DNA of 64,000 nucleotides from Naegleria gruberi (Eukaryota): the NCBI GenBank assembly GCA_000004985.1, contig GG738850.1. One strand, given 5' to 3'. Shown piece by piece: positions 2,114 to 48,200 of the stretch; position 1 is the first letter of the stretch; each line of letters opens with the position of its first letter. The notes beneath the pieces are model-generated. The model did not search any database and had not been told where the DNA came from. It saw only the letters and a program-made list of their open reading frames with translations. Made by a program: the position numbers and the translations under genes.

Positions 2114-4994
2114 ATGGGCTGTGGCACATTTTCCAAAAATTTGGTAGAGGACAGGCACACCCCAATAATTAGTAACAAAAAGTCATCATCAACGGCGGAT
2201 ATTCCACCAACAACAACAACAAATAATCCTTCAGAAACATCAGGTTCAGTCGATATATCGAATAGAAGAGTGTCCAAACAATCTTCAGTGAGAGCAAGTA
2301 AGGCTTCTACACTAGCCGAACAACTTTCTTCTCAGCAACAACATCAATCACACCAAGAAGAAGAATATTCTTTCGCGGACCACCAAGAAGAGGCTTATGC
2401 TTTTATTCCGTGGCCAGAAGATATAATGATCAGTCTCGCTACTAAGGGATCTAAATTTGAATTAAGAGAAGTATCACTTCTTCTACCATCGGATGAATTA
2501 AATCAAAAACCTCTTCTTAAATATGTAAAGGATAAGAGAAATAATTGTCAACAAAATATAATAGATTGCATGTATACAATCATGAGTAGGGTTCTAAACT
2601 TTGGAACCAATTTACCTTTTCCTGTAAATACTGAAAACCAATTTGATCTTGCCGTTGATTTCATTGCTAATGGCTGTCCAATTGGAAAACAACAATTTAC
2701 CTTCTTTTCTCATAAAGAAATCCTCCTACACAGAAGTGCGTTCTTCAAAGGAGAGTTATCAAAAGATAACGGAGCAGTAGATTCACTAAAAAGAACCCTT
2801 AGTAGTGCTCATGACCTTAGAAAATCGATGGTAAAGGCAGAATTCGCTGATAGAAGAAACACAGCAGGTGATCCATCACAGCTAAAACGAACGTCGAGTC
2901 ATATAACATCTCAAGGTCCTAGATCGAGTCTACCTCCAATGCCCTTACAAAAACGACCTTTTAATACAACAAGCTCTTCCAACCTCCTTCAGGGTATGGG
3001 TGATCTAAGCAAATCTGGATCTTCATCTTCGATAACAAGCGTTGAAGAGGGAGGTAATTCAGAGAAGGAAGAATTATTCTCCTCACAAGGTAGTTTATCA
3101 ACACTTTTACTAACAGAAGATTCTAGGAAAAAAGGACAACGAAAGCCAAACAACCAAAATTTAGCAGTCTCCATTTCTAAGCAAACAAAAGCAAATCTAC
3201 AGCCAAGTAGGTTAGAGGTTGCAATATCTCCTCTTGTAAAAGATCCAGAGATTTTGTTGTTAGTTTTTGAAAATATTTACTCTGGCTATTTCCGACCTGA
3301 ATACGTTCAAAAGATGAAATCTTTGGATATTGAAAGTTTAATTCAGATATTAGCACTAGGTTACCAATTTAAAGTTCATTCATTGAGAGCAGTTTCAAAA
3401 AGTTTAATCAGTCAGTTTTTGTGTACCCACAAGGATAAGTACACATCTTTGGAGGAGCTCATCAATGGAACTTGCAAGAATATAACTGTTGAGGATATTC
3501 AAAAAAACAATATGAGTATAGTTTTAGAATTGAAGAAAATTTTCATGGACTCTAAGAGTAAGTAATTAATCTAGAGAATTTCTAACATGCATTTTAATAG
3601 AATCATTACAAGAAAATTTCATTTCTCTATCACAAGAAAAAAGAACATTCCTTAAGGATCTAGATTTTATGTTTGTACATAGTAATATGAAGAAGAACCA
3701 TATGGACTTCAGTGACATGAAGTTAACAATACAGGTTGAAGAAAAAAAGGAAGAAGAGGAAAAAGAAGATGAATCCCCCAAGAGGTCGTCGTCTTTCAGG
3801 GATACTTATGAAGAAGATGTTCAACCACTAATAAGTCAAAGAAAGAAGAGGACGAGCAAACTTCAGGACAGTGTCGATAAGAGTCAAACTAAGAAAATAT
3901 TTATTCACAACTTTATACTGAAATCAAGAACAGATATTACAAATCCTGAAATATTTAATCTATACAGCACAAATGTTGATGTTGTGAAGACTTTTATTCA
4001 TTACCTGTATACAGATACTATACACAGTGATACATACAATGTGAGTAAGAAGAAGATAATACCTCTTGCTGCTTTGTTCAAGATTGATAGACTGAAATAT
4101 GAATGTTTGGCTCATGCTATTTTCAATTTATCGGATGAAAACATTCTCAGGAAGTTTAAGAAAGCTCAAGATGCTAAGGAGACTGTTCTTGCCCAAGCAA
4201 TTTTCTACACAATGTCACACATGTATCCTAAACTAGTCCAAAAGAACTATGAGGAAGGAACGCCAGAATATAATATTCTCTTCTCAATAGATGAAAAGCT
4301 TAGGCATTTATATCAGAGAATGAGTGGGCAATTCCTTATTAGAAGAAGAATATTTACAGAAAGTAGGTTGGCGGAGATAATACCGAGAGCTGATGTTTCT
4401 AAACTTTCTCCTTCTCAAAAATCTCCAAACCACAAGATTAATGTTCAAATATGTGGCCTTCACGGCTCTGGTCTTAGTACCTTCGTAAATCAAGCCAAAC
4501 CTCTCATCTCTGAACTTCATTCATTTGAAGGAGTTGACAATATTGAACTCAATATTTCTTCCATGTACATATCAGACAGACCATTTACTGCAAATTCTTT
4601 AAAGTCAACAGACGGTGTAATTTTTATATTTTCCATTGATTCAGTAGATTCCTACCAAACAATGAGAGCTAAGTATGACGACTTTAGATTCTATTCCAAA
4701 GTTCCAGCTGTAATAATAGGAAACAAATGCGATTTGATACTTTGTAATTTTGAAACAGAGGACAAGATTGTTGATTCAGACAGAATAGTGAAAGAAGTAA
4801 CTGAAGATATGGCTTGCCCATATCTTGAAATGTCTTCTAAAAATTCAAGTGATGTTAAAAGATCGCTTGAGGAATGCATAAGAGAAGTGTTGTTTTATAG
4901 ACATATCACTTCAAAGATACCAAGTCATTTCTTAAATACTATTGCTAGGGATCAACAAGGATTGGAATCATCAAGTAACATTTCAGAGGAATAA
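2114..4994 (+). CDS. BTB/POZ-domain protein with C-terminal degenerate Ras-like (pseudo)GTPase domain; N-terminal MGCG myristoylation motif; 2 exons (2114-3557, 3601-4994; intron 3558-3600)
   Basis: ORFs 2114..3565 and 3669..4994 are joined in frame by a 43-nt intron (GTAAGT ... TTCTAAC ... AG). Removing it gives ...FMDSKS-K-SLQENF... with no stop. BTB-like segments FTFFSHKEILLHRSAFFKGEL and TFIHYLYTDTI...LFKIDRLKYECL. The C-terminal domain has G4 NKCD and G5 SSK motifs, but the P-loop is GLHGSGLST (no Lys) and DxxG is missing. Confidence 0.55.
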
Positions 4995-5049: not shown

Positions 5050-6643
5050 ATGTATCCAAATAGAATGCTGGGGTTTACTTTCCCTAATTTTCCTCTCTTT
5101 CCACCAAGTAAAAATACAACACCACAACGGAATGATTTCAACGATTTATCAATTCTATGTGTTGCAAAAGAAGAACAGAAATCAATAACTGGTACGATCG
5201 ATGATTCGTCTTCTTCCTGTTCCGATCGCATCACAAAGAAACAAACAACAAAAAGAAAGAGATTATTTTGCAAGGAAAGTTACATTACATGTCAAGTAGG
5301 TTTTAAAGAAGATAGTTTCTAATCTAGATTCGGAATAGAGCAACTCTCAATTATATTCAACAATACAAGTTGTGGAGGAGGAAAATATTCTAATTCAACT
5401 GAACAAAATTCTTGATGCCTCCAATGACGAGCAATATTTTGGAATAACAATACTAGGAAACAAATATAATGTTAAAAAGACATCACATTTATACAGATTA
5501 AGATCCAAATTGGAGGTGAGGAGAAGGAAAAGATTAATAGGAGACTCTTTGGAGTTGTTTGATCTTGATCATATTTTACAACAAGTATCACTTCATTCAC
5601 AAAATAATCATTTCAAGCATCACGTTGTGAATAGCGATAGTATTCCTTATGTATTAAAATCTAAAATTCCAGTGATTGATAATTTTTCAAAATCAGAGAA
5701 TGAAATCAAGAAGGAATCAAAACCAGTTCCAATTCTTCCCAAGAAAATACTCCCTAAACCTATTGTAAATCAAAAGCCATCCCCAAAAAAAGGAAATACT
5801 CAAACTCAACAATCACTAGGACTGCCATTTATTGGTGGATATAATAATATCTCATTGCATTCTCCACTCATGTTTTTAACAACATCAAGAGAACTTCCAA
5901 TTACTTCACAAGTTATGCAACCACCCCCAACAAATATTCCTTTCAAAAACACATTTAATACGGACATTCAAATTACAACTCAAGCTTCTTCAAACAATGA
6001 AAAGTCAAAGAGACAAAAGATTGAAACAATAATTCCATTCAGTCAAAAATTACTAGGTTCAACAAAAATTACTGATATACTTTCGACGCATGATATTAGC
6101 TCATGTAATCTTGTAAAGTTATTCAAGGATATCACAAAACACAAGCAGAACATTATTTCTAACATACAATTGTGTAGAATCAAACCAACATTGTTGAAAC
6201 AAATTAATTCGCTCCTACAAAGATGTTTTTGGCCCAACATTGATGTAGAGAAATATCTCGAGCAACCAGATAGAACTATTGTAGCCATGTACAATCATTT
6301 GGTTGTTGGATTCGGAGTTGTGACAAGTGAAGGATATATTCATTACTTGGTTGTTATGCCACAGTTTAGAAATTATGGAATAGGTTCATTACTAATTGAA
6401 CAATTATTGAAATGCAACAGATCTTCTGAATTCACAATTCATATTCCACTGGAAGACAAGAAAACTATTTCATTTATGAAGAAAAGGTTTGGATTTAATT
6501 CTAAAGCTGTACATTGTGATTTCTTTAAAAGTTTGGTAGAATCTCCCAATAATAATATTTCTCTAACACAATATCAAACTAATATTACAGATTTCTTTAA
6601 AGAGAAATCTAGTGATGCATTATTAATGGTACGATCTAATTAA
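5050..6643 (+). CDS. GNAT-family N-acetyltransferase-domain protein (C-terminal acetyl-CoA binding fold); 2 exons (5050-5295, 5339-6643)
   Basis: Real ATG at 5050. A 43-nt intron, 5296-5338 (GTAGGT ... TTCTAATC ... AG), joins frame 1 to frame 2 with no stop. C-terminal GNAT motif region VVGFGVV...YIHYLVVMPQFRNYGIGSLLIEQLL. Start codon and exon 1 are less certain. Confidence 0.5.
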
Positions 6644-7101: not shown

Positions 7102-9500
7102 TTACACATCTGGGATTGTTTGATACAAGGCATCTATTTCGTTTTTGAAAACTTCTTTCAACTTTGGTCGGATAATCTTCATGGTTGGTGTTGTAACTCC
7201 GTATTGTTCAAATTCCTTTGGCAAAAGTTTAAGGCCACGAATAATTTCAAAACCTTTAAGCTTGGCTTGCTTGGCGACTGCGACAATATCAGCAAGTACT
7301 GCCTTAACAATATCTGGATCTTCACACAACTCTTCAATCTTATCAGCCAATTGTTCCTTACCATTATCTTTGGCATATTGTTGCAAAACTGAAATATTAG
7401 CAACAGCAAAACCTATAACACAGCTCTTGAATGAATCTCCATAAACCCAAATGCCAGTAATAAACTTAGATTGACTTAATTTTTGTTCAATATTTTCAGC
7501 AGCAATATATTCACCTTGACTCAATTTGAAAATATTCTTCTTTCTGTCAATAATTGAAATTGTACCATTTTCATTTTCCTTTCCAATGTCACCTGTATGG
7601 AACCATCCTTCAGCATCCCAAGCTTCCTTAGTCTTTTCTTCATCCTTATAATATCCCATTGAGACTGATGGACCACGTACACAAATTTCACCAGACTTAT
7701 TTAGTTCCATACTATAGTTCATTTCAGGCACATCATCCAATTTAACTTCAACTGATGGGACAACACAACCAATATGACTTTCAGAATAGTCATAAGGAAG
7801 TTGAATCAATGCAGCAGCACATGTTTCCTGAAAATTAGTTAGATTAAACAACATTCACAAAAACTTACAGTAAGACCATAACCTTGGACCAAACTACATC
7901 CGAAAATGACTCTCATGTATTGTTGAACTTCAGGACGGATTGGTGCACCACCTGAAAGACAAAATCTGATACGTCCACCAAAGTTCTTTCTGATAACACC
8001 CAAAACAACATCTGAGATTGGAGTAGATTTACCAGAGAGCATACCTTCTTCCTTAGATTTAATGGCCTTACTAATGGCCCATTGCTTTAATTTACCTTCC
8101 TTTGAGATCTTTTCTTTAATACCATCATATAATTTATCAAGAACTCTTGGTACAGCAGGGAAAGCAGTTGGTTTCAAAGCAATCAAATCATCCTTCAAAT
8201 TCTTAATATTACCTTCCCAGAAACCAATACTAGCACCTGCTTGCAAAAAGACAATTTCAACCATACGCTCCAAAATGTGTGCAAGTGGTAAATATGAAAC
8301 AACTTTCAAAAAATGTATCAATTCCAAAATCTACTATACTTACCACAATCATTTTCATTCAAATCAATAATATTGTGGGCAATACCAGCACTAGCAGCAA
8401 TAAAGTTCAAATGGGTAATGACAACACCCTTTGGCATACCAGTGGTTCCTGATGTGTAATTCAAACAAGCAATACTTTGAGGAGTTGGTGGAACATCTTC
8501 AATTGGGTTTTGTTTACCGAGTTCCATAACTTCATTTAAGGTGTATGACTTGATGTTAATCTTTTCCAAAGTTGATTTTTGTTCTTCAGTGATAGCATCA
8601 AAACAGATGACTGATTTAAGGTATTCAGCCTTTGGTGCCAATTTGATGACACTACCAAGGGTTTCTCCAGAACAACAAACTGAAACAACTTCACCATGAT
8701 TCATAATGAAATTTGATGATTCTTCTCCGAGAGTGTCATAGAGAGCAAGACTGACAAGAGATTGCTTATTGCAAGCCTCAACTGAAATTTGCCATTCTCT
8801 TCTATTCTTACTGTAAATAGCAATATGTTGGTTTGGGGAAATACCAATATGTCTCAAACCACAAGCAAGATTTCTGGACATATCATCAACTTCTTTAAAT
8901 GTAATGAATTCATATTCCATTAATAATTTAGATGAATCTGTTGGGTCTCTCATTCTTCTACCCAAGCAAGGTCTATCTGCGAATTTTTCAACACACTTTT
9001 TGAATGAATCATACAATGTGGAAATGTCCTCATATTTCTTAATAATCAAGGCATCTTGGTGGCCATTCTTTCTCTTGATACGAGGATCAGATCCACCAGA
9101 GACAGTTTGATTAGCTACTGGAGGATATGATTTAGATGAAGATGTAGTTGTTTTAATTCCCTTCAATTCCGGAACAAGGAATAAAGAAGCATCGGTCTTT
9201 GGTTCACTCTTTGGAACAGCCTCTACTGGTGGTTCCTCTTCCTTTGGTGGGGTTGTAATTTCTTCAACAAAATTATTAATATCCTTGTTTTCTTGATCTT
9301 TTTTTCTTTTAACCTTTTTCAATTATTAACAATAAAAACTCACCTTCAACTGTTGAAATATTTTCCTCTGTTTTCAAAGTTTCTGTGGTTGCCACTTCTT
9401 CAGTAGTAGTGGTACTACTTTCAATCTTTTCTTCTTGTTGCTTTTGTTCTTGTTCCTCCGTAACAGCAAGGGAATCGGCAAATGCTGAAAAATCACTCAT
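7102..9500 (-). CDS. Long-chain-fatty-acid--CoA ligase (ACSL / yeast Faa-like), 4 exons: 9500-9344, 9297-8344, 8302-7869, 7827-7102
   Basis: AMP-binding motif YTSGTTGMPKGV, SYLPLAHILER and GYGLTE motifs, C-terminal ACSL signature GWFHTGDIG...IDRKKNIFKLSQGEYIA. Introns 9343-9298 (GTGAGT, 46 nt), 8343-8303 (GTAAGT, 41 nt) and 7868-7828 (GTAAGT ... CTAAC ... CAG, 41 nt); phases verified. Exon 1 is an acidic, Thr-rich N-terminal extension starting at ATG 9500. Confidence 0.88.
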
Positions 9501-10084: not shown

Positions 10085-11091
10085 TTACCAACAACATCCA
10101 CTACCTCCTTCACTTTCGTTTGGTTCACTAGTTGAAATATTTACATTATCAGTTGGCTTATTTCTGACTGGTTCAGTACTTTCGAGAAGATTAGTTGTGT
10201 TGAGTATTTGATAGACAACTTCCTCAAATGCCTTATCAACATTTTCTTTTGTTTTGGCTGATGTTTCAATATAGACCATATTATTGGATTTGGCAAAGTT
10301 TTGAGCGTCTTGGAGTGAAACTTTTCTTTCTTCCTTCAAATCAATCTTGTTTCCAATCAATAATTTTACACATTCCTCAAATGTTGAATATAAATCACAT
10401 TCCTTAAGCCAATTCTTAATATTATTAAATGTTTCCTCTCTAGTAACATCATAAACAAGAATTATTCCATGAGCATTTCCTAAATATTTTGATTAAAATA
10501 TAAATCTCAAAATACATACTATAATAACTTGATGTAAGAGTTCCTTAAATTTTGTTAGAATTGATCAGTGAATTTTGGAAGCAAACTTACTAAATCTCTC
10601 TTGACCTAATTCAATTCTTTAGAGAATTCTGTTTCTTATTTATACACTTACCTGCAGTATCAAATATCTTTATCAATTATTTAGAAAAATTCAAATCTAT
10701 TATTTTACCTACAGTCAATTTTACTTTCTTCCTATTTACATTCATAAATTTAACCTTGCTATTTATAAAATCGTCATCATCATATTAAATCCAAATTCAA
10801 TAATTATTCATTAAAAACATACAAATCCACACCAATTGTTGGCGACATTTGTTCTTTAAACTCATCCTCAGTAAATTGTGTAATAATACTACTCTATCGG
10901 AATTAATTATCTTCATCAATCTTTAAAAAAACAAACCTTTCCTGTGGCACTATCACCAACAAGCTATTAAATCCCGAACCGAACCAAACCAAAATAATCG
11001 ATTCATCATCATCATCGTCGTTGCAAATACTCTAATAAATTGGAAAACTCACCACAAGTTTGAAATTATGATCAAAAGCCTTTGAAGTCAT
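10085..11091 (-). CDS. Rab-family small GTPase, at least 8 exons including 15-27 nt micro-exons; C-terminal double-Cys prenylation motif
   Basis: Exons reconstructed by hand: MTSKAFDHNFKLV | LVGDSATGK | SSIITQFTEDEFKEQMSPTIGVDF | KVKFMNVNRKKVKLT | IFDTAG | GQERF | RTLTSSYY | RNAHGIILVYDVT...IGNKIDL...ETSAKT...GCCW. All Rab G1-G5 motifs are present, with canonical GT...AG junctions. Confidence 0.7.
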
Positions 11092-12311: not shown

Positions 12312-12603
12312 TTTGTTTAAATTGTATTGAATAGAAAATAGATCATGAGTTTCTGATTTATTCTTTTCCTCAATTCCTTGTTTTGTTTCGAATTGAGGTA
12401 CACCAATGTCAAATCTATAATTCGAAACCCGACTTCAATTTAGAAGGTTGACTCTCGATTTCAAGGAGAAATAAATTTGAGCGCAAAACAACGACAGCCG
12501 ATATCTCTTTCTAAAACTGCGAACTTCAAATTGTCCACATTTGACTTGCAAGAATCAAATATTGTTTCATCAATGAATGCATGATCATTGCAATTCAGTT
12601 TTA

Positions 12604-18146: not shown

Positions 18147-21100
18147 ATGGAGCGAACATTATCATCGACAAATTGGAATAGAAAATTTAATTGTTCCGAA
18201 CAACGACAACGATCATCAATTCATATTGTAAATTATTTAATAGTGATAATTATTAGTTTTATTCTCATTAGTCATGGAATTAATTCAGTGATGGGAAAGA
18301 TTAGATATTTTGATACAAATAGTTTATTTGAACAAAATTATGTTCACTCAACGACATCAACAAGTGCTTCTGATGATGATGATACGGATTATTCGGCCCT
18401 ATTTTCAGATACATCACCACAACTTTCACTATTTAATATTCACAAGATTATTTCAGCGAGATTTGTCTTTTCAAAATTTAACGAGTTTATTTATTTACCA
18501 TCGAAATCTAATTCTACAATGGTGTTTTACTTTTTGACAGTTCTTAAAGATGGATTTGTCAAAATTGATTGTGATGGTGTTATTAACACAAAGGATTCAA
18601 CAATTTCAAGTACACTTGTAGTTGGAAAATATAATTTGGAAGAAGAAAAAGTTGTTTGGGCTGCCAAGCAAGAAATTCAATACTTTTTCGGTAAACCATT
18701 TGCATACGTAACAGAAAAAGATGAGATTATTATCAGTTGTAATATCAAAGATGATCAAGGTATTTTCTCAAAAAAGTTCTTTTCAGTGAATGGTGTATCA
18801 ACAAAACAACCTTCATTCGTCAACAAGAATACTGCACGAGAAGTCAACATTGTCATGGAAGGTAGTATTGATCGATTTTCTACTATTGGTAATCAAAGTG
18901 AAGGGTTTTTAGTGTTTGGTGCTAAAAATTTGAGAAAAACAAACTCTCTTTACGATTCTAAAAAGGAGACTTTGCATTTAGAAACATCTGTTATGGCTTC
19001 TTTTTATGCTGATGGATCACCTAGATGGAATGTGAAATTAGGTATGTGTTTAGTTTCATTTTTATATTCATAATACTGATCCAAGTTTATGGAAATATTG
19101 AGTTTTTTGAGCTTCTTTCAGTTAAAGTAGTTAGTTTATCAAATAACACTATACCCATTGTTGCTTGCTTTAATTATCTTGGAAGTGGCAGCCTAAAAAC
19201 TTTTGAGAGCCTTCAGGATACCTTTGTAGCACAAACAGATTCAGGATTCGAAAATACTAATTTCAGACTTTTTTCAAAGTACTTTTCAGCTGGAGTTTAT
19301 AGTATTTCTGAAACAGGGGTGTTTTCAGAACTATTTTCATTAAGAGCTTATCCTACAGGTGATTCAACAAGTGCCAACATTCTTGTTAAAGGGTTTTACT
19401 ATGACAAGGACAAGAAAATCTACATTTTATTAATTTATATGAAAGGATATCTTACTTTTTCTAAAACCAGTCATGGAGGATCCAATATGGAAGGAAATAT
19501 AATTTACACATCTACCAACAGAACTGGAGATTATATTCTTGTGAAATATACTGAGGGAGGTACTCCAGTATGCGTTCCTACATCATACATTGGTGATGAT
19601 CCTATTGTAACTACAAATTATTTTATCAATAAGAGAGTTTCTATTGAATCCTACAATAGTTCAAAGCTGCATTTGGAAGTGATAGATATTGAAACAGGAA
19701 CTATCAGGGATAATTTGGCAATTGACATTCAATCCGAAGACCCGTATGGCATTCAGTACGAATTATTTTATGAAAAGAGAAGATATTTAATTGTAAGAGG
19801 AACAACTCAAAATAATGGAACAATATTAATTAATAACAAGTTTTATGTAAAGCCATCAAAGGGTCAGTCAGAATTGGTATTTGTTCTGTACTTGAATACT
19901 CACCCAGAATATGGTAAACGTGAATTGGAATGTGATCAACAACTCAAATGCAGAGCGGTAAGTTTGAATTTTCAATCATTTTTAATTGTTCGATTAGAAT
20001 GCAAATGACAAGATTTGTCAAGCACATGGTATTTGTAATATGGAACAAAAATGTGAATGTGATGAATTCTATATGGGAGATTTTTGTGAAACATATTATA
20101 GAAATACTTTTATAGCAGTTATGGCAACTGTAGGAGTCATATTGATTACTCTGACAGGAAGTGTTTTAACAGGCATCGGAATGTATGCTTACAGAACAAT
20201 AGCTAAACGTCTAAAGCGTTTGCAGAGCAAGGTTAAGGCTGAACAAGAATTGGAACAAAAATTATTGGAATTTGTTGGACTTAATATTAACGAAACTACG
20301 TTTAATTTCAAAACATGGCTCATTCCATTCGAACAATTAACAATTGACAGAGAAATTGCTAGCTCTAATGGAAGAACAATTTTCCAAGGCTCATGGAAAG
20401 GAACATCTGTTGCCATTAAGAAGGTTAGACTAGAAGATTCCTTTGATTACCATGAGGATACTAAGGAATTGAACCTGGATAAAACATTGGAAAGAGAAGC
20501 AGCCATTTTGAGTAGAGTTAGACATCCTAATATTTTGAGATTCTGGGGTTTGGCATTTACTCAAACTGAACAATTTTTAGTGAGTGAGTTATTTACCTTG
20601 AGTATGGATCAAATTATTGATGAGGCAAAAAGAGGAGATCTCTACATTCCAATCCTTTGTAAACTTCAAATTCTACACGATATTGCATGTTCAATGACCT
20701 ATTTACATGAATTTGATCCTCCAATTCTTCACAGAAATTTAAAACCATCCAATATTATGGTAAGTTTTCAGGAAATTTTATTGATTTTCCTTACAATTTC
20801 AAGTTGAGTGAAGACGTCAGATATGGAAAAATACTTTCTGCTGTAAAGCCAAAAATCGCTGACTTTGGATTGTCTACACACTTGAGAGAAGATAATGTTC
20901 TTACGATGCAAATCGGTAATGTTCTATACTCAGATCCTCTCATCTTTAAGGGTGAAAGATATTCTGAAAAGTGTGATGTTTACAGTTTCTCAATGATAAT
21001 GTACGAAATGTTTTTTGAAACAGAACCATACAAAACTTCAGATAAGGTTGGAGAAATTAAGGAAAATTATAATCAATACTCAGTTCTTCCAAACAAGATA

Positions 21101-24391: not shown

Positions 24392-25695
24392 TTAGAGAGA
24401 GTATGATGAACAAACCTTCTCGCACAAGTCAACCAATTCATTATATAGCTCCTTATTTTTGGTAATTGGCAATGGTTCTTTAACTGCACATTGATCAAAG
24501 AATTTACCAGAAATTCCAGAAACATCTTTAGAACAAGCCAAATGGAGGGTGTTTTGACTACCAATTTCCAAATCTACAAAGAAAAAATATTGAATCAATG
24601 AAATCAAAGATTGGAGACCATAAGGAACCTCTCTCGATAATTCTGATTTGATAGCTCCTGGATGGCAAGCATTTACAGTAACTTTGCAATTTGGAGTATT
24701 CTTGATACGTTCATTAAAGTAATAGGTTTGATAAATATTACACAACTTGGTAAAACCATATTGCTTATTCTGGTTGACCAAGAAAAAATTAGAGAATGGT
24801 GTGACTGGCTTTTGTACACGATTCATCAATGTATGAACCTTCTTCTCAGTATTATAAAACTCATAATCCTTAATAAACATGTGAGCATATGAGGAAACAA
24901 TCACAATTCTAGCTCCATTAGGATTACCATTCATATTATTCCACAACAAGTCAACCAACAAATGATGACCCAATACATTCGATTGAAACATCTCCTCATA
25001 TCCTTGAACTGAATACCTTTCCCCTTTTATGAAATTAATTTACCATAAATTCAATTATTAACAAACCTACCTCCTACAGCACATCCTGCATTATTGATAA
25101 GAACATCCAATACTAAACCACCGTGTAAAAATTCCCTAGCACATTCTCTAACACTTTCCAAATTATTGAAATCCAATTTAATGAAATTCAAAGATCCTCC
25201 CTCATAGTTTACTTTCTTTTTCTTAATTTGTGAAATTACCTTTTGTGTCTTTTCTTCATTCCTACAAGCCATATAAACTGTAGCTCCCTGTCTATACAAT
25301 GCCTCAGCAGTATAGGAGCCAATACCTGCACTTGCACCTCTACAATATTTCAAATTATTCACAATGATGACAAATTGACCAAAAATTTAAATCATCACAA
25401 TTACCAGCAGATTTTAAATTCCCAATCAATCAATATTATTATTACTCCATCACCACACAAATAAAACAACGTACGTTATCAAGCAAACCTTTCCTCTCAT
25501 ATCTTCCTTCTCTCCATTAGTTCTCACTCCTCTCGTCATGAAATATTTCAGGAGCATGAGTGAGGATCCGACAATTCCTACTGCTGCTGCTGCTGTGCAA
25601 CCAATGGCAAACTGATGCTTTTCGAGTAGGGCAGAGTAGTAACCACCAGTAGTACTAGCGGCGCCTAGAAGATTGGAAAAATTGAAGAGCGGCAT
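24392..25695 (-). CDS. Short-chain dehydrogenase/reductase (RDH11/12- or WWOX-like SDR) with N-terminal membrane anchor; 3 exons (25695-25475, 25339-25071, 25023-24392)
   Basis: Splicing reconstitutes the canonical SDR motif GKVCLIT|GASAGIG across a 135-nt intron (GTACGT ... AG). A second intron, 25064-25024, has a GTAGGT donor (41 nt). NNAG and the FQSNVLGHHLL region are present. Confidence 0.8.
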
Positions 25696-28914: not shown

Positions 28915-30231
28915 ATGTCTGATGATCAACAAGAGGACCTTTCACCTTCCCGTCCGACTGAAAAAGAAGTAAAACCACCACCCCTTCGAAAATATGGCAA
29001 TTTGAATGATGTGAGAGAGGCTCATTCGTTCTATGCTGTAGGAAATATGGCAACAATCTTTGTTTTTATGGCACAGAATAATGCAGATAGTTTTGAATTG
29101 ATTGCGTTGGAGGGAGAACAATTTCCTGACGAGGTACGTGATAAGCGTGTGTCGTTGATCTTATCTGGTGGGAGAGCAAGTGGAGTTTATTCAATATTTA
29201 TGATTAGAGGATTGGAAAAGAAAGGTTTCTTGTTGGGAAAGGGAGTTGTGAAATATTTTACATACGAAAGGTTGATGAATGATGTGGATAGTTCAAAATC
29301 GAGGAGATTTAATCGATGTTTGGCTTGTTGTGAGGGATATGTAATTTTAGAGATGGAGGATGAGGAATTGTATATATTTGAAATTGTGGATGAAGTTTTA
29401 AAACCATTTAAATTGGAAAAAAAAGTGAAACTAATTGCTCACAATATGATGTCTAGCACTGTTGCTGTGTATTTTACAGATCATACTTTGAGGATTGTAG
29501 ATTTGACAAATGACAACAAGTTGGGAAATGAAATTGAGTTAATTAATAATTCTCCAATCAAAGTCTTGGCGAAATATGCAGCAGATTTATTTATTTTCGT
29601 TCATCAGGATGATTCCATGTATATTTATAGAAATGATGAGGAAAGTGATGGGTTTGTTAGTATTCCAGACAATGTCACTACTCAAATCAAAACTGAGTTT
29701 TCATCTCCAATCAAACAATTGGTTGCTGGTTATTCACATTTTGTTGTTCTACTTGAAGATGGAAAATGTTATACCAGGTAGGTTATTTTGTAAATGATAT
29801 AGTTGAATTGAATGCTAATTCTCTTTTAATAACCAAGAGGGATGAACAATTATGGTCAAATAGATGGTAAAATGGGTGGTGAGGGCTCTACAGTGACTCA
29901 TTTTCATCCAATTCTTCACAATATTGGAACAGTGCTCTCTGTGAATTGTTCTTCATTATCCACAACTTTGGAAACAGAAAGTGAAATAGTTCTTGTCGGA
30001 GAAGTTTCTCAAACATTCCAAAAGTTAAGTTATCCTTATTGTCAGGGAATGAATAGCTTTTGGGTTCATAGAAAAGAATTCTCAGATGAAACAACTAGCT
30101 TTGGACCTTGGCATGGATTTATTTATAGAGCTAGTTTCCATAATTTACCTTGTAAGACATTACAATATTTCAAAAATAATTTGAGAATGTTGGTAAAGGT
30201 TCCTAAACTTTCTGATATTTCCATTCAATAA
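28915..30231 (+). CDS. RCC1-repeat (regulator of chromosome condensation-like) protein; 2 exons (28915-29780, 29838-30231)
   Basis: A 57-nt intron (GTAGGT ... GCTAAT ... AAG) joins ...DGKCYT|R|GMNNYGQIDGKMGG, which is an RCC1 blade signature. ATG at 28915. Confidence 0.65.
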
Positions 30232-33681: not shown

Positions 33682-36359
33682 TTACAGTTTGTCGGATTGC
33701 AATGTGAAACGAGGGAAGTTAATTCTAGGATAAGGTGTTTGAGAGAGTTTGACTTTGGAGGCCTTCTTATTGGCAAGGAGTAGTGAGGCAACTTCCTTTT
33801 TCCAGTTGTCTGCTTCTTTTTGTAATCCTTCAAATTCTTCTAAAGCTATTGAGACATAGATAATTAAATCTTTTGGAATGTCGAGGGATGGATTGTCGCG
33901 TACGAGATCATTAAATGATTTGGAATCTGCCTGAACTGATTTAAGTGTTTGAATAAATGTTTCAACCTTGCTCTTCAAAACTCTAAAATAATTTTGTTTA
34001 AGGATATATTGAATTAAATTCTCAATACTTACAAATCAATTGATTCTTCAACTCTTTGGAATTCACTATCAACGGCCTCTTCAGCTTGTGCTTCCTTCTT
34101 CTTCTTTTTCAATATTGAGGATGATCTAATCTTTGATACAGAGCTGTAGGAAACAATAGACTCAATACTTGGACGAGTTCCAGATATTGAAGTTCTTCTT
34201 GGTTCCATATCCAAACTACGACGTATGCCTGTATCTTCAACTGAAACTATTGTTCTCTTCTTTTCATAGGCTGGTGGCGTAAGTGAGTTACTGTTAGATC
34301 TGTCTCTTCCAACTATTGGAGAACTTGGTTTATCCTTCTTAGGTTTGTCTTGAGGAATGGCAGAGAGTGGTGCAAATTCTGAAAATACTGACGAAGAGTA
34401 TCTTTGCAATTTGAAAAGAATAATTCTTTGGAAGATGCTTCTAATGTCTGCACTCCAATGAAGGAACAAGTGATAGAATCTATCTCTCAACAAGTCATGC
34501 CCAATAAATTTCATTCTTGCCCTTCCGTTGAACAAGTCCAGAATATTATACACGAAAATTAAAGTTCTCGAAACAATTTGGAAATGGTCTGTTTCAAGAA
34601 GTCTCGAAATTGCTGTTTCAAAGAACTCGAAATTGAAGCTATATCACAAATTAATTCTTGATTAAATTTTCTAGTATACTTACTTCTCAGGTAGTGAACC
34701 AATAAATAGTTCAATATTAGAGTCATTAGATTCCAAGTAGAAATAGGTATGTTGATGTTTTTGATTTCTGTACAGTAAATATTGTTGGAATTGGTGTTCC
34801 AAGTGTCTCACTTCTTCGAACCACTTGTCCGTCCAATCTAGAGTGTAGAAAACTTGATCGGGGTTATATCCGTTAGTGTTTGAGAAGAAAATTTCCATCA
34901 AAATGTTAATCACTCTAGGGTTACGAAGAGCAATCAGGGAGCATGACAACCATTGCTTAAATGCGATGGATTCGTGGCCATCCTCACCTCTTGCTGATTC
35001 TTCTAATCTTTGAATTTTTTGTTCTTGTTTGTTAGTTGTATCAGTTGATGAAACAATAGCATCGCTAAAGTTAATATTGATATGTTGTTTCAAATAAATT
35101 TCACCCAATTGAGTAAAATGAGTTACAAGAGTAGTATATCCGGGCACTAGTTGCCAATGTTTGTTTGATGTATCATGTTTCATAATCTTACTGATTTGAT
35201 CCACAAATTCTGAGAAGAAATAATTGAAAAAGTCGGCTGAAACCTTTGATGTTGGTACCCACACAGATGCATTCTTCATCCATTCACTCATCTTGATTAG
35301 AATAGACTTGGTATTTGGATCATTGAGTGGATCAATTTCAAAGAAGAATTTAAAGTAGCACAGAGCTGTCTTGAGTACGAATAATTTTTCCTCATCCTCA
35401 GCTGGCTCTTCTTTTGTCTTTTCTTCTTCATCTGAGTCATATTGTCCTAGAAGGGTCGAGAGACTGGTCATTGAAGGGACATACTTTAAGTTTTTAAAAG
35501 ACTTTTTCTTAATGTCCAAGTTAGTGTTCACAATATCAACAGTTTCAGGTTCCACAAAATCGGAATCAAATTGTTTCAAACAAAGGCTAGCAACAAACAT
35601 CTCAATTTGATCGACCGATAATAATCGGAAACAGTTTACGGCCAGAACAGAAGCACAAAATCTCATCAATTCAACAACGATATTTTCATGCTTCTTCGTC
35701 TTTAGTACTTGGTTGATGACGAAATCTTGAGTTCTCACCAGTAATTCCTTGTATTCCAATAGGACCTTCTTTGATAGTTCATCATTACCGTCGGATTTCT
35801 TCATAGATCCTAGTAAAGAGCTTAGGAAACCTTTCTTTTGTGGTTGGTTGTTAGGATTAAATGTTGGACTAATTTTCAAGAATGATAGATCTGTTTCTGT
35901 AGATGATGAGAGATCGGCACCAGTGTGTGATGGAGAGACCTCCTTTGTTATTTGATTCAAAATTAGGTTTTGGAAATACTTTGGGTGAAATTCTCTTCTC
36001 TTGATCAACAATAAAATTAACTTGTAGCAAGGTAATCTATAATTAATGCTGATCATATCTATTCTAATAATCAAATACTTCCACACATCCAGGAATAGCT
36101 GTGATGCTTGGAGTCTCTTCTTTGTAATGTTGTGTGTTTCTTCCAATCCAATAACTCCCACATTGTTATCAATTGTTAAACCTCCGAAATCAAATCTTGG
36201 ATCTTCTTGAAACATTTCCAAGAGTTGAGATAATACATTCTCTTGGATCGTTTGTGATGACAGTAATTGTTTACACAATTTCTCTTGCTTTCCTGTCCAC
36301 TTTACCAGAAAATCCCTTCTGCTGGTAAATTGTTGTGTAGGGTCTTCTATAGCGCTCAT
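33682..36359 (-). CDS. Large conserved hypothetical protein (about 860 aa), 3 exons (36359-34684, 34638-34033, 33982-33682)
   Basis: Real ATG at 36359 (MSAIEDPT...). Introns 34683-34639 (GTAAGT, 45 nt) and 34032-33983 (GTAAGT, 50 nt) link three ORFs in phase. Helical-repeat-like composition; no domain recognised. Confidence 0.45.
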
Positions 36360-36845: not shown

Positions 36846-37874
36846 TTACAGTTGTTGATTGGTATTATTCATTCGTTGTAAATATTCGTTCAATCTGAGC
36901 TGAATGACAAACTTATTGAGATGATAGACAAAATATTCGTCAGAGTTTTCCATTTTGATTTCGTGAAGATCTTTGAGTTGAATCCAAGGTTTGGACTTTT
37001 CTATTGAGCTGAGCTTGTTCATGATCAGTTGATGGTATTCACTTCGTTTCTCTTCAGAGGGAAGATGATTTCTCACCTTCATTAATTGATCTCTTTCCTC
37101 AGAGCCATTTTCAAACCAGATACGTGGGGGTTTTCCTTGAATTAATCTCTCAGTTTCGTAACACAATCTTAGTGAGTGGTAGTAATTCTTTTGGTAACCT
37201 CGTTTGATTTTACCCTCTCCTTGTTGTAATTGTCTTTTAGCAAATGCACAATGAGATGAAATAACCTTCTTATTTAAGAATTGAATGTTTAACTTTTTCA
37301 AAGGTTCCCATTCTCTTGATTGATATTTATATGGGAAGAAATCTGGAACGAATAATGTTTGAAATACGAAAGGATTTCCATGTAGACACAATTCCAAATA
37401 TTTTCCAATTTCTAATTAATTATTAGATTAATCCAAATAATATAAATATTAATATTATTATTTTGTTGTAATTAATAGTAATAAATTAATAATAATTATT
37501 ATAATAAATAATGATCTGATCAAAGTACACAACCTACCAAAACATGAAATATCATTTCCATCCTTTGTTACGGTACAAATTCCCTTATCAGCCAAATTCA
37601 ACACCTTTGCCTTGGCACTTCCAATGCTACTAATATCAACATATGATAATTTTGGTTCATCAATAGAAAAAGAAGGCATTGATAGGAATTGCTCACACGG
37701 TAACATGTAAATCATGACAAAATCAAAATCACTCTTATTTTCATTCTTTAAATTGTAGAGTGTTGATCCGACAGCTGTGATGAACAGTAATTTAGCCTTT
37801 GGTGAAACATTTTCCTTCAGGAAATCCTCACCCATCAATTTGATAGAATTTTCATCGAATTGTTTGTTGTTCAT
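36846..37874 (-). CDS. Minimal nucleotidyltransferase-fold (Pol-beta superfamily) protein, 2 exons (37874-37538, 37411-36846)
   Basis: N-terminal LLFITAVGSTLYNL...SDFDFVMIYMLP matches the GS...[DE]h[DE]h nucleotidyltransferase signature. A 126-nt AT-rich intron, 37537-37412, has a GTAGGT donor and AG acceptor; phase verified (...DISCF|E|IGKYLELCLHG...). Confidence 0.45.
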
Positions 37875-39583: not shown

Positions 39584-39654
39584 GCGTCGATGGTTTAGTG
39601 GTAGAATACGGCGTTGCCATCGCCGTGACCCGGGTTCAATTCCCGGTCGACGCA
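39584..39654 (+). tRNA. tRNA-Gly (anticodon GCC)
   Basis: 71-nt cloverleaf: acceptor GCGTCGA/TCGACGC, D-arm TGGTTTAGTGGTAGAATA, anticodon stem CGGCG/CGCCG with loop TTGCCAT, T-arm CCGGGTTCAATTCCCGG. Confidence 0.9.
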
Positions 39655-40857: not shown

Positions 40858-41150
40858 TGTTTTTGTTTTTTTTAACGAAGAGAATGCAAAGATAAGATTC
40901 GGCCAGTTTCGAACCGGCAAGAGCTGTTCCCTTCAGACTCTTTTGGCTGCCTAAAGCAGATAGAATTTTGTGTAGTGGAAGATAAGTTTGACAGCCCCTA
41001 TCTATTTCAAATTTGACTAGGTTACAGAGAAACACCACGCTTGCTAAGTGTTCACCACAACTTTACAATATTCGAATTTGTGGCTGTAGACACTTCCATT
41101 AATAAACAAGTCCATTGGCTGCATTTCAAATTAACTTAGCAACATGATGT

Positions 41151-41417: not shown

Positions 41418-41436
41418 TGATCATATCAGAGAGTTA

Positions 41437-45235: not shown

Positions 45236-48200
45236 ATGATCAATACAAATTTAAAAGGCAACAGCACCTCTTCGTTTGCTGAATCACCTACTGTTGCAAC
45301 AACGAGCAGTAATATGTATAATTCATCGAGAGAAATGGCTGGATTTCCTCTTCAAAAATTAGTTTTAGGAGAAGTAAATTCTCTCATTCTAGCCATGAGA
45401 AATATTCATTCAATGAGATATTCTAATAGATATAGATTTGTATGTATTGTTATTAGTTACAGCTTTGAATAATATTTTAAAAGCAATATGAAAACTTACC
45501 AAGACAAGGAGGAAATGAAAGTCCTGTCCTTGTGGGAATGAGAGCTTTACGAGAAAAAATCTGTAGTAACATTGGATGGCAATCCATGACTAGTTTGGAT
45601 ATTCTTCAACCTTTCTTTTCAATTATTAAATCGGAAGATACTGAAGGAAGAATAACATCAATGGCCTTACGATCCATTCAAAAATTATTGGAATCACCAA
45701 GTTTTATTTGTAGGTTTTATTGTTTTATAGTATTATTCTTAAGGTAAAAAAGCTCCTTTATCTAATTTAGAAGAAGCCAAGACGGCCATTCAAGAAATTG
45801 TTTCTGCTGTTCAACAATGTCAATTCGAGTTTAACTCTACTGATTCTACTTCATTGTCAGAATCGGGAGGACCTATTATTTTGGATCATTCTCTTGGAAG
45901 TGGACTTGGTTCTATAGCATCAGTTGTATCGGAGACTACACTTTTGGAATCTGTACTCATTCAAATAATTAATACATTCATGTGTTGCATTAAATGTGAA
46001 GCTGGATTTTTAATACCAGAAGAGATGATTCTTGAAATCTTAAAGAGTGTTTTGAGAATTGGAAGAGAAACAAGACCATGCACTGATTCCTTGAGAAAAA
46101 TAGCAGAAATGACAATGCAAGAAATTGTTAAAATTGTCTTTACAAGATATAAGAATATGGCTACCTCATCATCTCAGGCAGTCTATGGAGGAGAAAAGAT
46201 TTTTGAATTTATTTGCGACATGTGTGATATTTCTTCTAATACTTCAACTGAATCACCATCAACAGCAGCCATCAAATTAACTTCTCCTTCAACAGGACCT
46301 AATTCTGCTGGAGTAAATAGTATTGGTACTAGATATTTGGGAATTAGTCTTGCTTGTCATGCGATTGAGCTTATTGGAGATACCATTTCCAAAGATAAGA
46401 ATAACAAGATACTGAACATGATTTGTGATCAACTTTTTAGAGCCCTTTTGAGAAACACCAACATTTCCTATCAGACAATACTCTTTATGGCCAATGGTGA
46501 AATGATGTTCAGTCCAACTGTCCAATCTGGTATGGGGTCCTCCTCACCAATCACTTCTGCAGTTTTAATTGCTGCAAATGGTGGTAATTTACAACCAACC
46601 CATGCAAACTATGGCAATAACTTGATGCTCCTTTCTGCTGTTCTCAAATGTACCATATCCTACTTGGCAAGCTTACCTAATCTGAGATATTATTTGCATG
46701 AACAAATTGCTTCTATTCTCCTCACATTATTACAACATTTACCATCACCACAACAACAATACGGATCAAACAAGAAGAATTTTTCCAATTCTCCAATTTT
46801 AGGAAGTAATAGTAATATTTTCCTTCCATTCGAATTACAAGAATTAATTTTGGAATATTTGGTAGAAGTTTGTAGAGATTCAAACTTTATTACCTTCTTG
46901 TATAGAAACTATGATTGTTATGGATGCTTTGTAAAAAATAAGGATAACTTTATCGTCAATGTAAATACTATACCGAACCTTTTCGAACACATTTACCTCT
47001 ATTTGAATAGTTATATTGGACTAAACTCAAATTCAAACTCATCAAACAATAGCCAAAATAACTTCCATAATAGTGCTTCTATGGGAAATACATCAAGCCA
47101 ATTCAATAACTTTTCCAATCCTTCCTCATCTGGCTCTGGTAATTTGCATACTTTGCACGTGTTGGCATGGGTTGGCCTTTTGAGTGTTGTAAGGTGTCTT
47201 GCCGAACGATGCCAAGAACAACAAGAAAGTAGACAAACTTTGGACATGCAAATTGTTCACACTAAAATGTCAGAATTGAAAACTTTCAAAAAACAAAAGC
47301 ACAAGTATATGGAAATTGTTGCCCTTTTCAATAGTAGTCCACAAGAAGCCATAACACAATTATTGCAATTACACAATATTAGCATTCCAAAAGATTTGAC
47401 TCAATTCATCAAGAGTGACAGCTCAAACGAACAAGAAAGCACAACTGTCGACTGGAATGAGGCTATAGTTTTATTGCAAAGAGCTGCTGAAAAAATTTCT
47501 AAATTCCTTCTCGACTATAATATGTGGCTAGATAAGCAAAAAATTGTTGATTACTTTAATAGCTTCTCTTCTCCACCTAGTACAGTAGTGGATATTAAAG
47601 TAAATATGGGATCCATAGTAATACCAGAAGATCAACTCAATCACAACACTTATCTGATTCCAATTTTGAGTAAGACAAGAAAAGACCATCTCAGAAATGC
47701 CCTTCCTTTGGAAGTAATGAGACAATTTATGGATGGGTTTGATTTTTATGGAATGAGAATGGAAGAATGTATGAGATATTTCATTAATAGATGTAAGATT
47801 TCAGGAGAAGGACAACAAGTAGAAAGAATCATTAAACTCCTCGGTGAAAGTTACTACAGAGACAACAATACCCACTTTGCTTTGGAGAGAAATGATTCAA
47901 GCAAAAATCGTACCATACCAGCCATTCCTTACATTGACAATGGAGAACAAGCTTGGATTTTAGCTGTAGCTTTAATGCTCTTACACACAGATCTTCACCA
48001 TCAAAACAATAGAAACAGAATGAATTTGGCCGATTTTATGAAAACCATTGGATATCACGATGAGTTAAAGGGTATTCCTCAAGAAGAACTTCACAAAGTC
48101 TATCACTACTTATTGGCTAATGAATTTGAAGTCATGACAGGAATGACCGATGCCTACAAGACTGAAGCAATTTGGAAAGAAGTTATTGTTGACAAATCCT

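What the first reader, a model, noticed from the sequence alone, without database searches (positions are those of the whole stretch)
10085..11091. Uniform ultra-short introns (40-46 nt) and a Rab gene fragmented into eight or more exons with 15-27 nt micro-exons
Across at least 12 verified junctions in the window, introns are 40-46 nt (a few are 50-180 nt). Donors are GTAAGT, GTATGT or GTAGGT, the branch is CTAAC or CTAAT about 15-20 nt upstream of the AG, and acceptors are YAG or AAG. The Rab gene contains exons as short as 15 nt (GQERF) and 16 nt (IFDTAG). These would be missed by ORF-based annotation. The neighbouring 6-kb GBF1 gene has only two introns. The strong length constraint suggests intron-definition splicing with a tight size optimum. 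This is useful as an annotation prior for this genome and as a taxonomic clue.
Basis: seen in the sequence. Interest (0 to 1): 0.5.

Follow-up and report, generated by a model that had tools for sequence, protein, structure and literature searches.

The report
Naegleria Rab18 gene, short introns
This is the Rab18-type small GTPase gene of the amoeba Naegleria gruberi, split into eight exons (four of them 15-27 nt) by seven ordinary short GT-AG introns; the reading is correct, but the gene and the short-intron habit are already in the public annotation, so it is ordinary.

Summary
On the minus strand, 11091..10085, eight exons (39, 27, 71, 46, 16, 15, 24, 395 nt) are joined by seven GT-AG introns (89, 43, 64, 45, 46, 47, 40 nt). 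They encode a 210-aa Rab with every GTPase motif and a CCW tail. It aligns without gaps to Ypt1 and Rab18 across all seven junctions.

The window is Naegleria gruberi NEG-M. One 2010 model (XP_002681527.1) already has all the micro-exons but lacks exon 1. A second (XP_002668282.1) has exon 1 but skips the 15- and 24-nt exons. N. fowleri and N. lovaniensis share six of the seven intron positions.

Across the window I placed 24 introns, 14 checked by homology. Eighteen are 40-47 nt (median 44.5) and none is shorter than 40. The rest are 50-135 nt.

The claimed CTAAC/CTAAT branch motif is present in only 7 of 24. Acceptors are TAG or AAG, almost never CAG.

Intron-definition splicing is a reasonable inference that cannot be tested here. 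The one mildly new point is that the intron creating the 16- and 15-nt exons is absent from four relatives. It is probably a recent gain. Interest is low.

The parts
11053..11091 (-). Rab18 exon 1 (39 nt, ATG..., MTSKAFDHNFKLV)
   Evidence: The same 39-nt exon is present in N. fowleri, N. lovaniensis, Willaertia and L008. It is missing from XP_002681527.1.
10964..11052 (-). intron 1, 89 nt, GTGAGT...TAG, phase 0
   Evidence: The position is shared with four relatives. Retention gives a stop at aa 20.
10937..10963 (-). exon 2, 27 nt micro-exon (LVGDSATGK, P-loop)
10894..10936 (-). intron 2, 43 nt, GTTTGT...TAG, phase 0
   Evidence: The position is shared with four relatives.
10823..10893 (-). 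exon 3, 71 nt (switch I, PTIGVDF)
10759..10822 (-). intron 3, 64 nt, GTATGT...TAG, phase 2
   Evidence: Shared with N. fowleri, N. lovaniensis and L008. Willaertia has an intron 1 nt away.
10713..10758 (-). exon 4, 46 nt
10668..10712 (-). intron 4, 45 nt, GTAGGT...AAG, phase 0
   Evidence: It has an in-frame stop although its length is a multiple of 3.
10652..10667 (-). exon 5, 16 nt micro-exon (IFDTAG)
10606..10651 (-). intron 5, 46 nt, GTAAGT...TAG, phase 1, at CAG|GT; found only in N. gruberi
   Evidence: It is absent from N. fowleri, N. lovaniensis, Willaertia and L008, which have no intron at this position; the three Naegleria-type sequences have one 31-nt exon here. It resembles intron 4.
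10591..10605 (-). exon 6, 15 nt micro-exon (QERF, catalytic Gln)
   Evidence: Skipped in XP_002668282.1.
10544..10590 (-). intron 6, 47 nt, GTAAGT...CTAAC...AAG, phase 1
10520..10543 (-). exon 7, 24 nt micro-exon (RTLTSSYY, switch II)
   Evidence: The same 24-nt exon is present in N. fowleri, N. lovaniensis and L008. Skipped in XP_002668282.1.
10480..10519 (-). intron 7, 40 nt, GTATGT...TAG, phase 1
10085..10479 (-). exon 8, 395 nt including TAA (G4 NKID, G5 SAK, C-terminal GCCW)
7828..7868 (-). acyl-CoA synthetase gene intron, 41 nt (GYGLT|ETCAA)
   Evidence: The PDB alignment is gapless across the junction.
8303..8343 (-). acyl-CoA synthetase gene intron, 41 nt
9298..9343 (-). acyl-CoA synthetase gene intron, 46 nt (52 possible)
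   Evidence: reading frame only.
57979..58020 (-). Cys/Met PLP enzyme gene intron, 42 nt (YSRV|HNKT)
   Evidence: Homology rules out the 30- and 33-nt alternatives.
25024..25070 (-). short-chain dehydrogenase gene intron, 47 nt
25340..25474 (-). short-chain dehydrogenase gene intron, 135 nt, GTACGT (GKVCLIT|GASAGIG)
19042..19085 (+). receptor-kinase-like gene intron, 44 nt
   Evidence: reading frame only.
19958..19997 (+). receptor-kinase-like gene intron, 40 nt
   Evidence: reading frame only.
20760..20803 (+). receptor-kinase-like gene intron, 44 nt (HRNLKPSNIM|L)
29778..29837 (+). RCC1-repeat gene intron, 60 nt
   Evidence: The RCC1_2 match covers 1-30 of 30 without gaps across the junction.
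45440..45483 (+). GBF1-like gene intron 1, 44 nt
   Evidence: the only frame-compatible candidate. Sec7 and GBF1-like TPR domains lie downstream.
45710..45752 (+). GBF1-like gene intron 2, 43 nt (34 nt alternative not excluded)
   Evidence: reading frame only.
34639..34683 (-). DUF1765 gene intron, 45 nt
   Evidence: reading frame only.
33983..34032 (-). DUF1765 gene intron, 50 nt
   Evidence: reading frame only.
3558..3600 (+). intron, 43 nt, GTAAGT...CTAAC...TAG, joining ORFs 2114-3557 and 3601-4994
5296..5338 (+). intron, 43 nt, GTAGGT...CTAAT...TAG, joining an 82-codon first exon (ATG 5050) to ORF 5339-6640
   Evidence: read directly.
37412..37537 (-). RlaP-family gene intron, 126 nt, 13% GC (weakest call)
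   Evidence: No hidden micro-exon.

Best explanation
The locus is the Rab18-type small GTPase gene of Naegleria gruberi NEG-M, on the minus strand. Its 633-nt coding sequence is cut into eight exons by seven canonical U2-type GT-AG introns. All seven lie in the first 238 nt of the coding sequence.

The introns are AT-rich (24% GC against 32% for the exons). They start with a strong U1-complementary donor (GTAAGT, GTATGT or GTAGGT type) and end in TAG or AAG. Most sit in the genome's preferred size class of 40-47 nt.

Shown here: the exon chain, its conservation in relatives, and the length class. Inferred: each short intron is recognised as a unit across the intron (intron definition). This is why exons of 15, 16, 24 and 27 nt can be tolerated. 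The sharp peak just above 40 nt is most simply a pile-up at the shortest length the Naegleria spliceosome can handle.

The intron that splits a 31-nt exon into 16 + 15 nt is peculiar to N. gruberi. It is most parsimoniously a lineage-specific gain at a CAG|GT site.
For: - Exon chain and product.
- Pfam Ras 1-161 of 162, E 7e-62.
- Gapless alignment to Ypt1 (7.6e-55) and Rab18 (3e-54) over all junctions.
- 100% identity to N. gruberi XP_002681527.1, and full-length support from the N. fowleri, N. lovaniensis and Willaertia orthologues.
- Exact threading of the orthologous proteins on their genomic loci gives the same first four exon lengths (39, 27, 71, 46) and the same 24-nt exon in N. fowleri, N. 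lovaniensis and L008.
- Every intron gives a premature stop if retained.
- Window-wide, 18 of 24 introns are 40-47 nt and none is below 40. In the PLP-enzyme gene, homology picks the 42-nt solution over 30 or 33 nt.
- The window holds about 0.7 introns per gene. This matches the published 1.7 exons per gene and 10,688 introns in 15,709 genes (PMC8296547; PMC6142364 supplement).
Against: - No RNA evidence was available, so all junctions rest on homology and reading frame.
- Ten of the 24 window introns are supported by frame only. Two of these have an alternative acceptor (46 or 52 nt; 43 or 34 nt).
- No convincing branch-site consensus was found (strict CTAAY in 7 of 24).
- The published mean intron length for N. 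gruberi is 203 bp. The genome-wide distribution must therefore have a long tail, or contain mis-annotated long introns, that this 64-kb sample does not show.
- Intron definition is inferred, not tested.
Confidence: 0.9

Rival explanations
1. The narrow length peak is a selected optimum. On this view splicing is most efficient at about 44 nt, and the peak is not a passive pile-up at a lower bound under deletion bias.
For: - The distribution is tight on both sides for most introns: 18 of 24 within 8 nt.
- A related species has all six orthologous introns at 40-43 nt.
Against: - There is a hard floor at 40 nt but a loose tail up to 135 nt. That shape is expected for a lower bound.
- Orthologous introns are freely longer in N. 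fowleri and N. lovaniensis (49-154 nt), so length is not tightly constrained within the genus.
- Sequence alone cannot separate the two models.
Confidence: 0.3
2. The shorter public model (XP_002668282.1, without exons 6 and 7) reflects a real alternatively spliced isoform and not an annotation error.
For: - Skipping exons 6 and 7 (39 nt) keeps the reading frame.
- The model exists in the 2010 annotation.
Against: - The skipped 13 residues (QERFRTLTSSYYR) carry the catalytic Gln and switch II, so the product would be a dead GTPase.
- All five related sequences keep these residues.
- The other N. gruberi model includes them.
Confidence: 0.05
3. The locus is a decaying pseudogene or an assembly artefact, and the exon chain is an over-fitted reconstruction.
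For: - Seven introns in 238 nt is extreme for a genome with about 0.7 introns per gene.
- A duplicate copy sits on a 5.3-kb scaffold.
Against: - The spliced ORF is intact with all G-box motifs and a prenylation tail.
- Six intron positions are conserved in N. fowleri and N. lovaniensis, and the protein is 86% identical.
- Every boundary is a canonical GT-AG with a strong donor.
Confidence: 0.02

Closest known systems
Public N. gruberi NEG-M gene models XP_002681527.1 (EFC48783.1) and XP_002668282.1 (EFC35538.1), 'rab family small GTPase'
   Same: They are the same gene. XP_002681527.1 is 100% identical over residues 14-210 and already contains the 27-, 16-, 15- and 24-nt exons.
   Different: XP_002681527.1 lacks exon 1 and is flagged partial. 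XP_002668282.1, on a 5,345-bp scaffold, has exon 1 but skips exons 6 and 7. The 210-aa chain given here is the union of the two, and it matches the full-length orthologues.
Orthologous Rab18-type genes of N. fowleri (XP_044567336.1), N. lovaniensis (XP_044541899.1) and Willaertia magna (KAL9644573.1)
   Same: Six of the seven intron positions, with their phases, are shared with the two Naegleria species. The first two are shared with Willaertia. The donors are of the same GTAAGT or GTAGGT type.
   Different: The two Naegleria species lack N. gruberi intron 5 and have two extra introns in the 3' half. Their introns are longer (49-154 nt). Willaertia has only four introns.
Short-intron eukaryotes spliced by intron definition (Schizosaccharomyces pombe and other fungi; ciliates with about 25-nt introns, PMC5014332)
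   Same: They show a sharp intron-length mode close to a lower bound, a strong 5' splice site and AT-rich introns. Short introns are a common feature of many species (abstract of PMC5014332; the rest is from my own knowledge).
   Different: The Naegleria mode (about 44 nt) lies between ciliates (about 25) and fungi or Drosophila (about 50-65). There is no clear branch consensus of the fungal CTAAC type, and AAG acceptors are as common as TAG.
Rab18 / plant RABC genes of other eukaryotes (Selaginella, Genlisea, Vitrella, Acrasis)
   Same: They belong to the same protein subfamily (52-57% identity) and are also intron-containing.
   Different: None of their intron positions coincides exactly with a Naegleria position. 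The nearest are one codon away, at DTA|G and after NKID. The dense 5' fragmentation therefore looks specific to the Naegleria/Willaertia lineage and not ancestral.

Membership tests
Rab small GTPase (Ras superfamily) | G1 P-loop GxxxxGK[ST], switch I Thr, G3 DTAGQE, G4 NKxD, G5 SAK | tested here: met
   GDSATGKS, PTIGVDF, DTAGQE, GNKID and ETSAK are all present in the spliced product. Pfam Ras matches 1-161 of 162, E 7e-62.
Rab small GTPase (Ras superfamily) | C-terminal double-cysteine prenylation motif | tested here: met
   The product ends ...GSGCCW (CCX type). This ending is conserved in the Naegleria and Willaertia orthologues.
Rab18 / RABC subfamily | Closest named relatives are Rab18/RABC and not Rab1 or other Rabs | tested here: inconclusive
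   Beyond Heterolobosea, the named hits in the large database are almost all Rab18 or RABC1/2. Among solved structures Ypt1 (7.6e-55) and Rab18 (3e-54) score equally. No phylogeny was made.
Canonical U2-type GT-AG spliceosomal intron | GT at the 5' end, AG at the 3' end, and an extended donor complementary to U1 | tested here: met
   All 24 introns are GT...AG. Donors are GTAAGT 10, GTAGGT 6, GTATGT 4, GTGAGT 2, GTTTGT 1 and GTACGT 1.
Canonical U2-type GT-AG spliceosomal intron | Removal restores a continuous conserved protein; retention disrupts it | tested here: met
   Alignments are gapless across the junctions. All seven Rab introns give a premature stop when retained.
Canonical U2-type GT-AG spliceosomal intron | Recognisable branch-point motif at a fixed distance from the 3' splice site | tested here: inconclusive
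   Strict CTAAY is present in 7 of 24 introns, 7-29 nt from the 3' end. The looser YTRAY motif is expected by chance in sequence of 22% GC.
Canonical U2-type GT-AG spliceosomal intron | Spliced junctions observed in RNA | not testable with these tools
   No transcript data for N. gruberi could be reached. The RNA-seq project PRJEB23822 exists (PMC6142364).
Intron-definition splicing | Introns well below about 200 nt, flanked by exons too short to be defined across the exon | tested here: met
   Introns are 40-135 nt and internal exons are as short as 15-27 nt.
Intron-definition splicing | Splice-site mutation causes intron retention and not exon skipping | not testable with these tools
   This needs an experiment.
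Micro-exons | Internal coding exon of 30 nt or less, flanked by bona fide introns and conserved in orthologues | tested here: met
   The exons are 27, 16, 15 and 24 nt. The 27- and 24-nt exons are conserved in three other Naegleria-type sequences. The 16 + 15 pair is a single 31-nt exon in those relatives.

The most novel reading that the evidence does not exclude
Intron 5 (10651-10606) splits a 31-nt exon into the 16- and 15-nt micro-exons. On this reading it is a recent intron gain in the N. gruberi lineage at a CAG|GT proto-splice site, and it was copied from the adjacent intron 4. The copying could be by reverse splicing or by local duplication.

For:
- The intron is absent from N. fowleri, N. 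lovaniensis, Willaertia and a Naegleria-like contig.
- Among 276 intron pairs in the window, intron 4 and intron 5 are the best-matching pair (shuffle p = 0.0015).

Against:
- Matches of equal score occur about seven times in the 128 kb of window sequence.
- Part of the similarity is a TTCTAA-type motif shared with other introns.

The gain itself is likely. The origin from intron 4 is only suggestive.
Probability: 0.15. Interest if true: 0.45.

Novelty: already known. Interest (0 to 1): 0.15.

Why it matters
The value is practical.

- In Naegleria gruberi an intron-length prior of about 40-47 nt, with a floor at 40, together with protein-guided alignment, recovers micro-exons that one public model of this very gene skips. 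It also gives the first full-length 210-aa model of the gene.
- The skipped-exon model turns three short introns and two micro-exons into one 172-nt intron. Some of the long introns behind the published 203-bp mean may be artefacts of this kind. This is an inference and was not tested genome-wide.
- For intron evolution, the gene is a compact case of lineage-specific gain and loss within one genus.

None of this changes what is known about splicing.

Tried and rejected
- A home-made dynamic-programming gene finder with a flat intron-length prior chained the whole window into two 'genes' with hundreds of introns. I discarded it.
- Over-representation of GTNNGT hexamers did not pick out donors, because there are too few introns in 64 kb.
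- A candidate 169-nt intron in front of the LRR gene (53500-53332) was rejected. The ORF has its own ATG and the upstream piece has no support.
It also has no record for either N. gruberi model, so the public exon coordinates could not be read.
- Two structure-database searches were set too strictly and returned nothing.
- The GBF1 N-terminal search found no homologue, so the 43-or-34-nt choice for its second intron stays open.
- The supplement table of PMC6142364 that should list N. gruberi intron quartiles is truncated in the held text. The 2010 genome paper is not held. My memory of a published median near 60 bp is therefore unverified.
- Similarity between intron 5 and intron 6 was tested and is not significant (z = 1.4).
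- No hidden micro-exon lies in the 126-nt intron.
- No Rfam family lies inside any intron.

Full report
**What is at the coordinates**

The finding's span (10085-11091) is the stop codon to the ATG of a gene on the minus strand. Reading the reverse complement and joining at GT...AG boundaries gives eight exons of 39, 27, 71, 46, 16, 15, 24 and 395 nt. The seven introns are 89, 43, 64, 45, 46, 47 and 40 nt.

My first attempt had two boundaries off by one or two bases. The correct ones use the donors GTAGGT (intron 4) and GTATGT (intron 7). The product is 210 aa and carries GDSATGKS, PTIGVDF, DTAGQE, GNKID, ETSAK and a C-terminal GCCW.

**Is it more than chance?**

- Pfam Ras matches profile positions 1-161 of 162 (E 7e-62).
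- Yeast Ypt1 and human Rab18 align without a single gap over residues 5-107, which contain all seven junctions.
- Each intron gives a premature stop if left in.

The exon chain is therefore established as far as sequence can establish it.

**Whose gene it is**

The protein search returns Naegleria gruberi at 100% identity, so the window is N. gruberi NEG-M. Its 31-36% GC agrees with the published 33% (PMC8296547).

Two models from the 2010 annotation exist.
- XP_002681527.1, on a 707,703-bp scaffold, has every micro-exon. It starts at exon 2 and is flagged partial.
- XP_002668282.1, on a 5,345-bp scaffold, has exon 1. It jumps from exon 5 to exon 8 and loses QERFRTLTSSYYR, which carries the catalytic glutamine and switch II.

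The full-length orthologues of N. fowleri, N. lovaniensis and Willaertia magna support the 210-aa chain given here, which is the union of the two models. So the micro-exons are already public.

**Conservation of the structure**

I threaded each orthologous protein exactly onto its own genomic locus, allowing only GT/GC...AG introns. I read a Naegleria-like contig from run SRR636569 by hand.

| Source | Exons (nt) | Introns (nt) |
|---|---|---|
| N. gruberi (this window) | 39, 27, 71, 46, 16, 15, 24, 395 | 89, 43, 64, 45, 46, 47, 40 |
| N. fowleri | 39, 27, 71, 46, 31, 24, 110, 36, 258 | 154, 83, 75, 52, 56, 63, 67, 79 |
| N. lovaniensis | 39, 27, 71, 46, 31, 24, 110, 36, 258 | 97, 80, 73, 49, 52, 72, 65, 72 |
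| SRR636569 contig (L008) | 39, 27, 71, 46, 31, 24, 401 | 43, 40, 42, 40, 42, 43 |
| Willaertia magna | 39, 27, 72, 57, 465 | 56, 41, 44, 49 |

- Six of the seven N. gruberi intron positions are shared within Naegleria.
- The seventh, intron 5, splits the 31-nt exon into 16 + 15 nt and is found only in N. gruberi.
- N. gruberi and the SRR636569 species lack the two 3' introns of the N. fowleri/N. lovaniensis pair.
- None of these positions coincides exactly with introns of Selaginella, Genlisea, Vitrella or Acrasis Rab18/RABC genes. The nearest are one codon away. The dense 5' fragmentation therefore looks lineage-specific and not ancestral, though only four outside taxa were sampled.

**The window-wide length claim**

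I listed coding-looking stop-to-stop segments. For each adjacent same-strand pair I enumerated all frame-compatible GT...AG joins of 25-400 nt without any length preference.

Thirteen pairs have a strong donor exactly at the ORF boundary with a 40-50-nt solution. The pairs that are evidently separate genes offer only long joins with weak donors.

Homology then confirmed these junctions:
- two in the acyl-CoA synthetase gene, 41 and 41 nt;
- one in a Cys/Met PLP enzyme gene, 42 nt, where 30 and 33 nt were also frame-compatible but break the YSRxxNxT spacing;
- one in the kinase domain of a receptor-like kinase, 44 nt;
- one inside an RCC1 repeat, 60 nt;
- two in a short-chain dehydrogenase gene, 47 nt and 135 nt, the latter inside GKVCLIT|GASAGIG.

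One more 43-nt intron was read directly (5296-5338).

In total there are 24 introns. Eighteen are 40-47 nt, the median is 44.5 and the minimum is 40. The rest are 50, 60, 64, 89, 126 and 135 nt. Of the 14 checked by homology, ten are 40-47 nt.

With roughly 35 genes in the window this is about 0.7 introns per gene. That matches the published figures (1.7 exons per gene; 10,688 introns in 15,709 genes). The Rab gene, with seven introns, is about ten times the average.

**Signals**

- Donors: GTAAGT 10, GTAGGT 6, GTATGT 4, GTGAGT 2, GTTTGT 1, GTACGT 1.
- Acceptors: TAG 12, AAG 11, CAG 1.
- Mean intron GC is 22%.
- The claimed branch motif CTAAC/CTAAT occurs in only 7 of 24 introns, at 7-29 nt from the 3' end. 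A looser YTRAY is expected by chance in such AT-rich sequence. That part of the finding is not supported.
- Intron lengths show no clear avoidance of multiples of three (6 of 24).

**The GBF1 remark**

The large gene at 45.2-51.6 kb has a Sec7 domain and a GBF1-like TPR domain. Two frame-supported introns lie near its 5' end: 44 nt, and 43 nt with a 34-nt alternative. A 5.8-kb open exon follows. The remark is right in substance. The gene is 35 kb away, not adjacent, and I could not confirm the junctions by homology.

**How it most likely works**

Shown: the exon chain, its conservation and the length class.

Inferred from general knowledge of short-intron organisms: each intron is paired across itself (intron definition). 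A near-perfect U1 site and the AT-rich intron body mark the unit. Exon length is then not limiting, which is what allows 15-16-nt exons.

The hard floor at 40 nt with a loose upper tail, and the freely longer orthologous introns in N. fowleri and N. lovaniensis, fit a pile-up at the minimum spliceable length better than a two-sided optimum. Sequence cannot decide between them.

The published mean of 203 bp is far above the mode seen here. The skipped-exon model shows one way the mean could be inflated. It converts 46 + 15 + 47 + 24 + 40 nt into a single 172-nt intron.

**The one slightly new thread**

Intron 5 is absent from all four relatives and sits at CAG|GT. One gain is more parsimonious than two or three losses.

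I asked whether it resembles a neighbouring intron. Against intron 6 it does not (z = 1.4). Intron 4 against intron 5 is the top pair of 276 in the window (z = 4.3; p = 0.0015 by 20,000 shuffles).

A scan of the whole window finds about seven other places that match intron 5 equally well. Part of the match is a TTCTAA-like motif seen in other introns. I treat an origin from intron 4 as a low-probability lead.

**Verdict**

Gene, organism and micro-exons are already in public records. This is an ordinary feature of a known genome with modest annotation value.

Noticed in passing
window 10606-10712 (-): The N. gruberi-specific intron 5 and the adjacent intron 4 are the most similar pair among 276 intron pairs in the window (shuffle p = 0.0015). 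Equally good matches to intron 5 occur about seven times elsewhere in the window.
   Followed up: partly
window-wide, 24 introns: 3' splice sites are TAG (12) or AAG (11), with a single CAG. AAG being as common as TAG is unusual compared with the YAG rule of most eukaryotes.
   Followed up: partly
L001 3001-4271, L006 501-1702, L002 3001-3850, L008 2044-2932: Orthologous introns of this gene are systematically longer in N. fowleri (52-154 nt) and N. lovaniensis (49-97 nt) than in N. gruberi (40-89 nt), Willaertia (41-56 nt) and an unnamed Naegleria-like contig from run SRR636569 (40-43 nt). The organism behind SRR636569 is not identified.
   Followed up: partly
window 60498-60585 (-) and 39584-39654 (+): There are two tRNA genes. 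One is tRNA-Gly(GCC). The other is an 88-nt tRNA with a GUA (Tyr) anticodon loop and an insertion of about 15 nt after the anticodon. This is a canonical tRNA intron, and ARAGORN in its default mode missed it.
   Followed up: partly
window 11244-12434 (-): The ORF immediately upstream of the Rab gene has a match to the Apolipoprotein L domain (PF05461, E 6e-8, 32.9 bits against a cut-off of 25.9). This is an unexpected family for an amoeboflagellate.
   Followed up: no
window 45755-51574 (+): The Sec7 domain of the GBF1-like protein spans 277 residues against 183 profile positions, so it carries sizeable insertions. A search with the spliced N-terminal 396 aa found no homologue at E <= 1e-10, not even an N. 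gruberi entry.
   Followed up: no
window 51704-53323 (-): A 539-aa protein is made almost entirely of about 24-residue leucine-rich repeats (ISEMKQLTSLxIxxNxIGDEGAK), repeated about 18 times with very high identity between copies.
   Followed up: no
window 41136-41420 (+): A signal-peptide-like start (ATGATGTTTGTTCTTTTGCTT...) is out of frame with the coding-looking ORF that follows. No strong donor was found that joins them, so the gene start is unresolved.
   Followed up: no
window 3558-3600 (+): A 43-nt intron appears to fuse two long ORFs (2114-3557 and 3601-4994) into one protein of about 945 aa. Its C-terminus has a partial Ras-family domain (PF00071, E 3e-11).
   Followed up: partly
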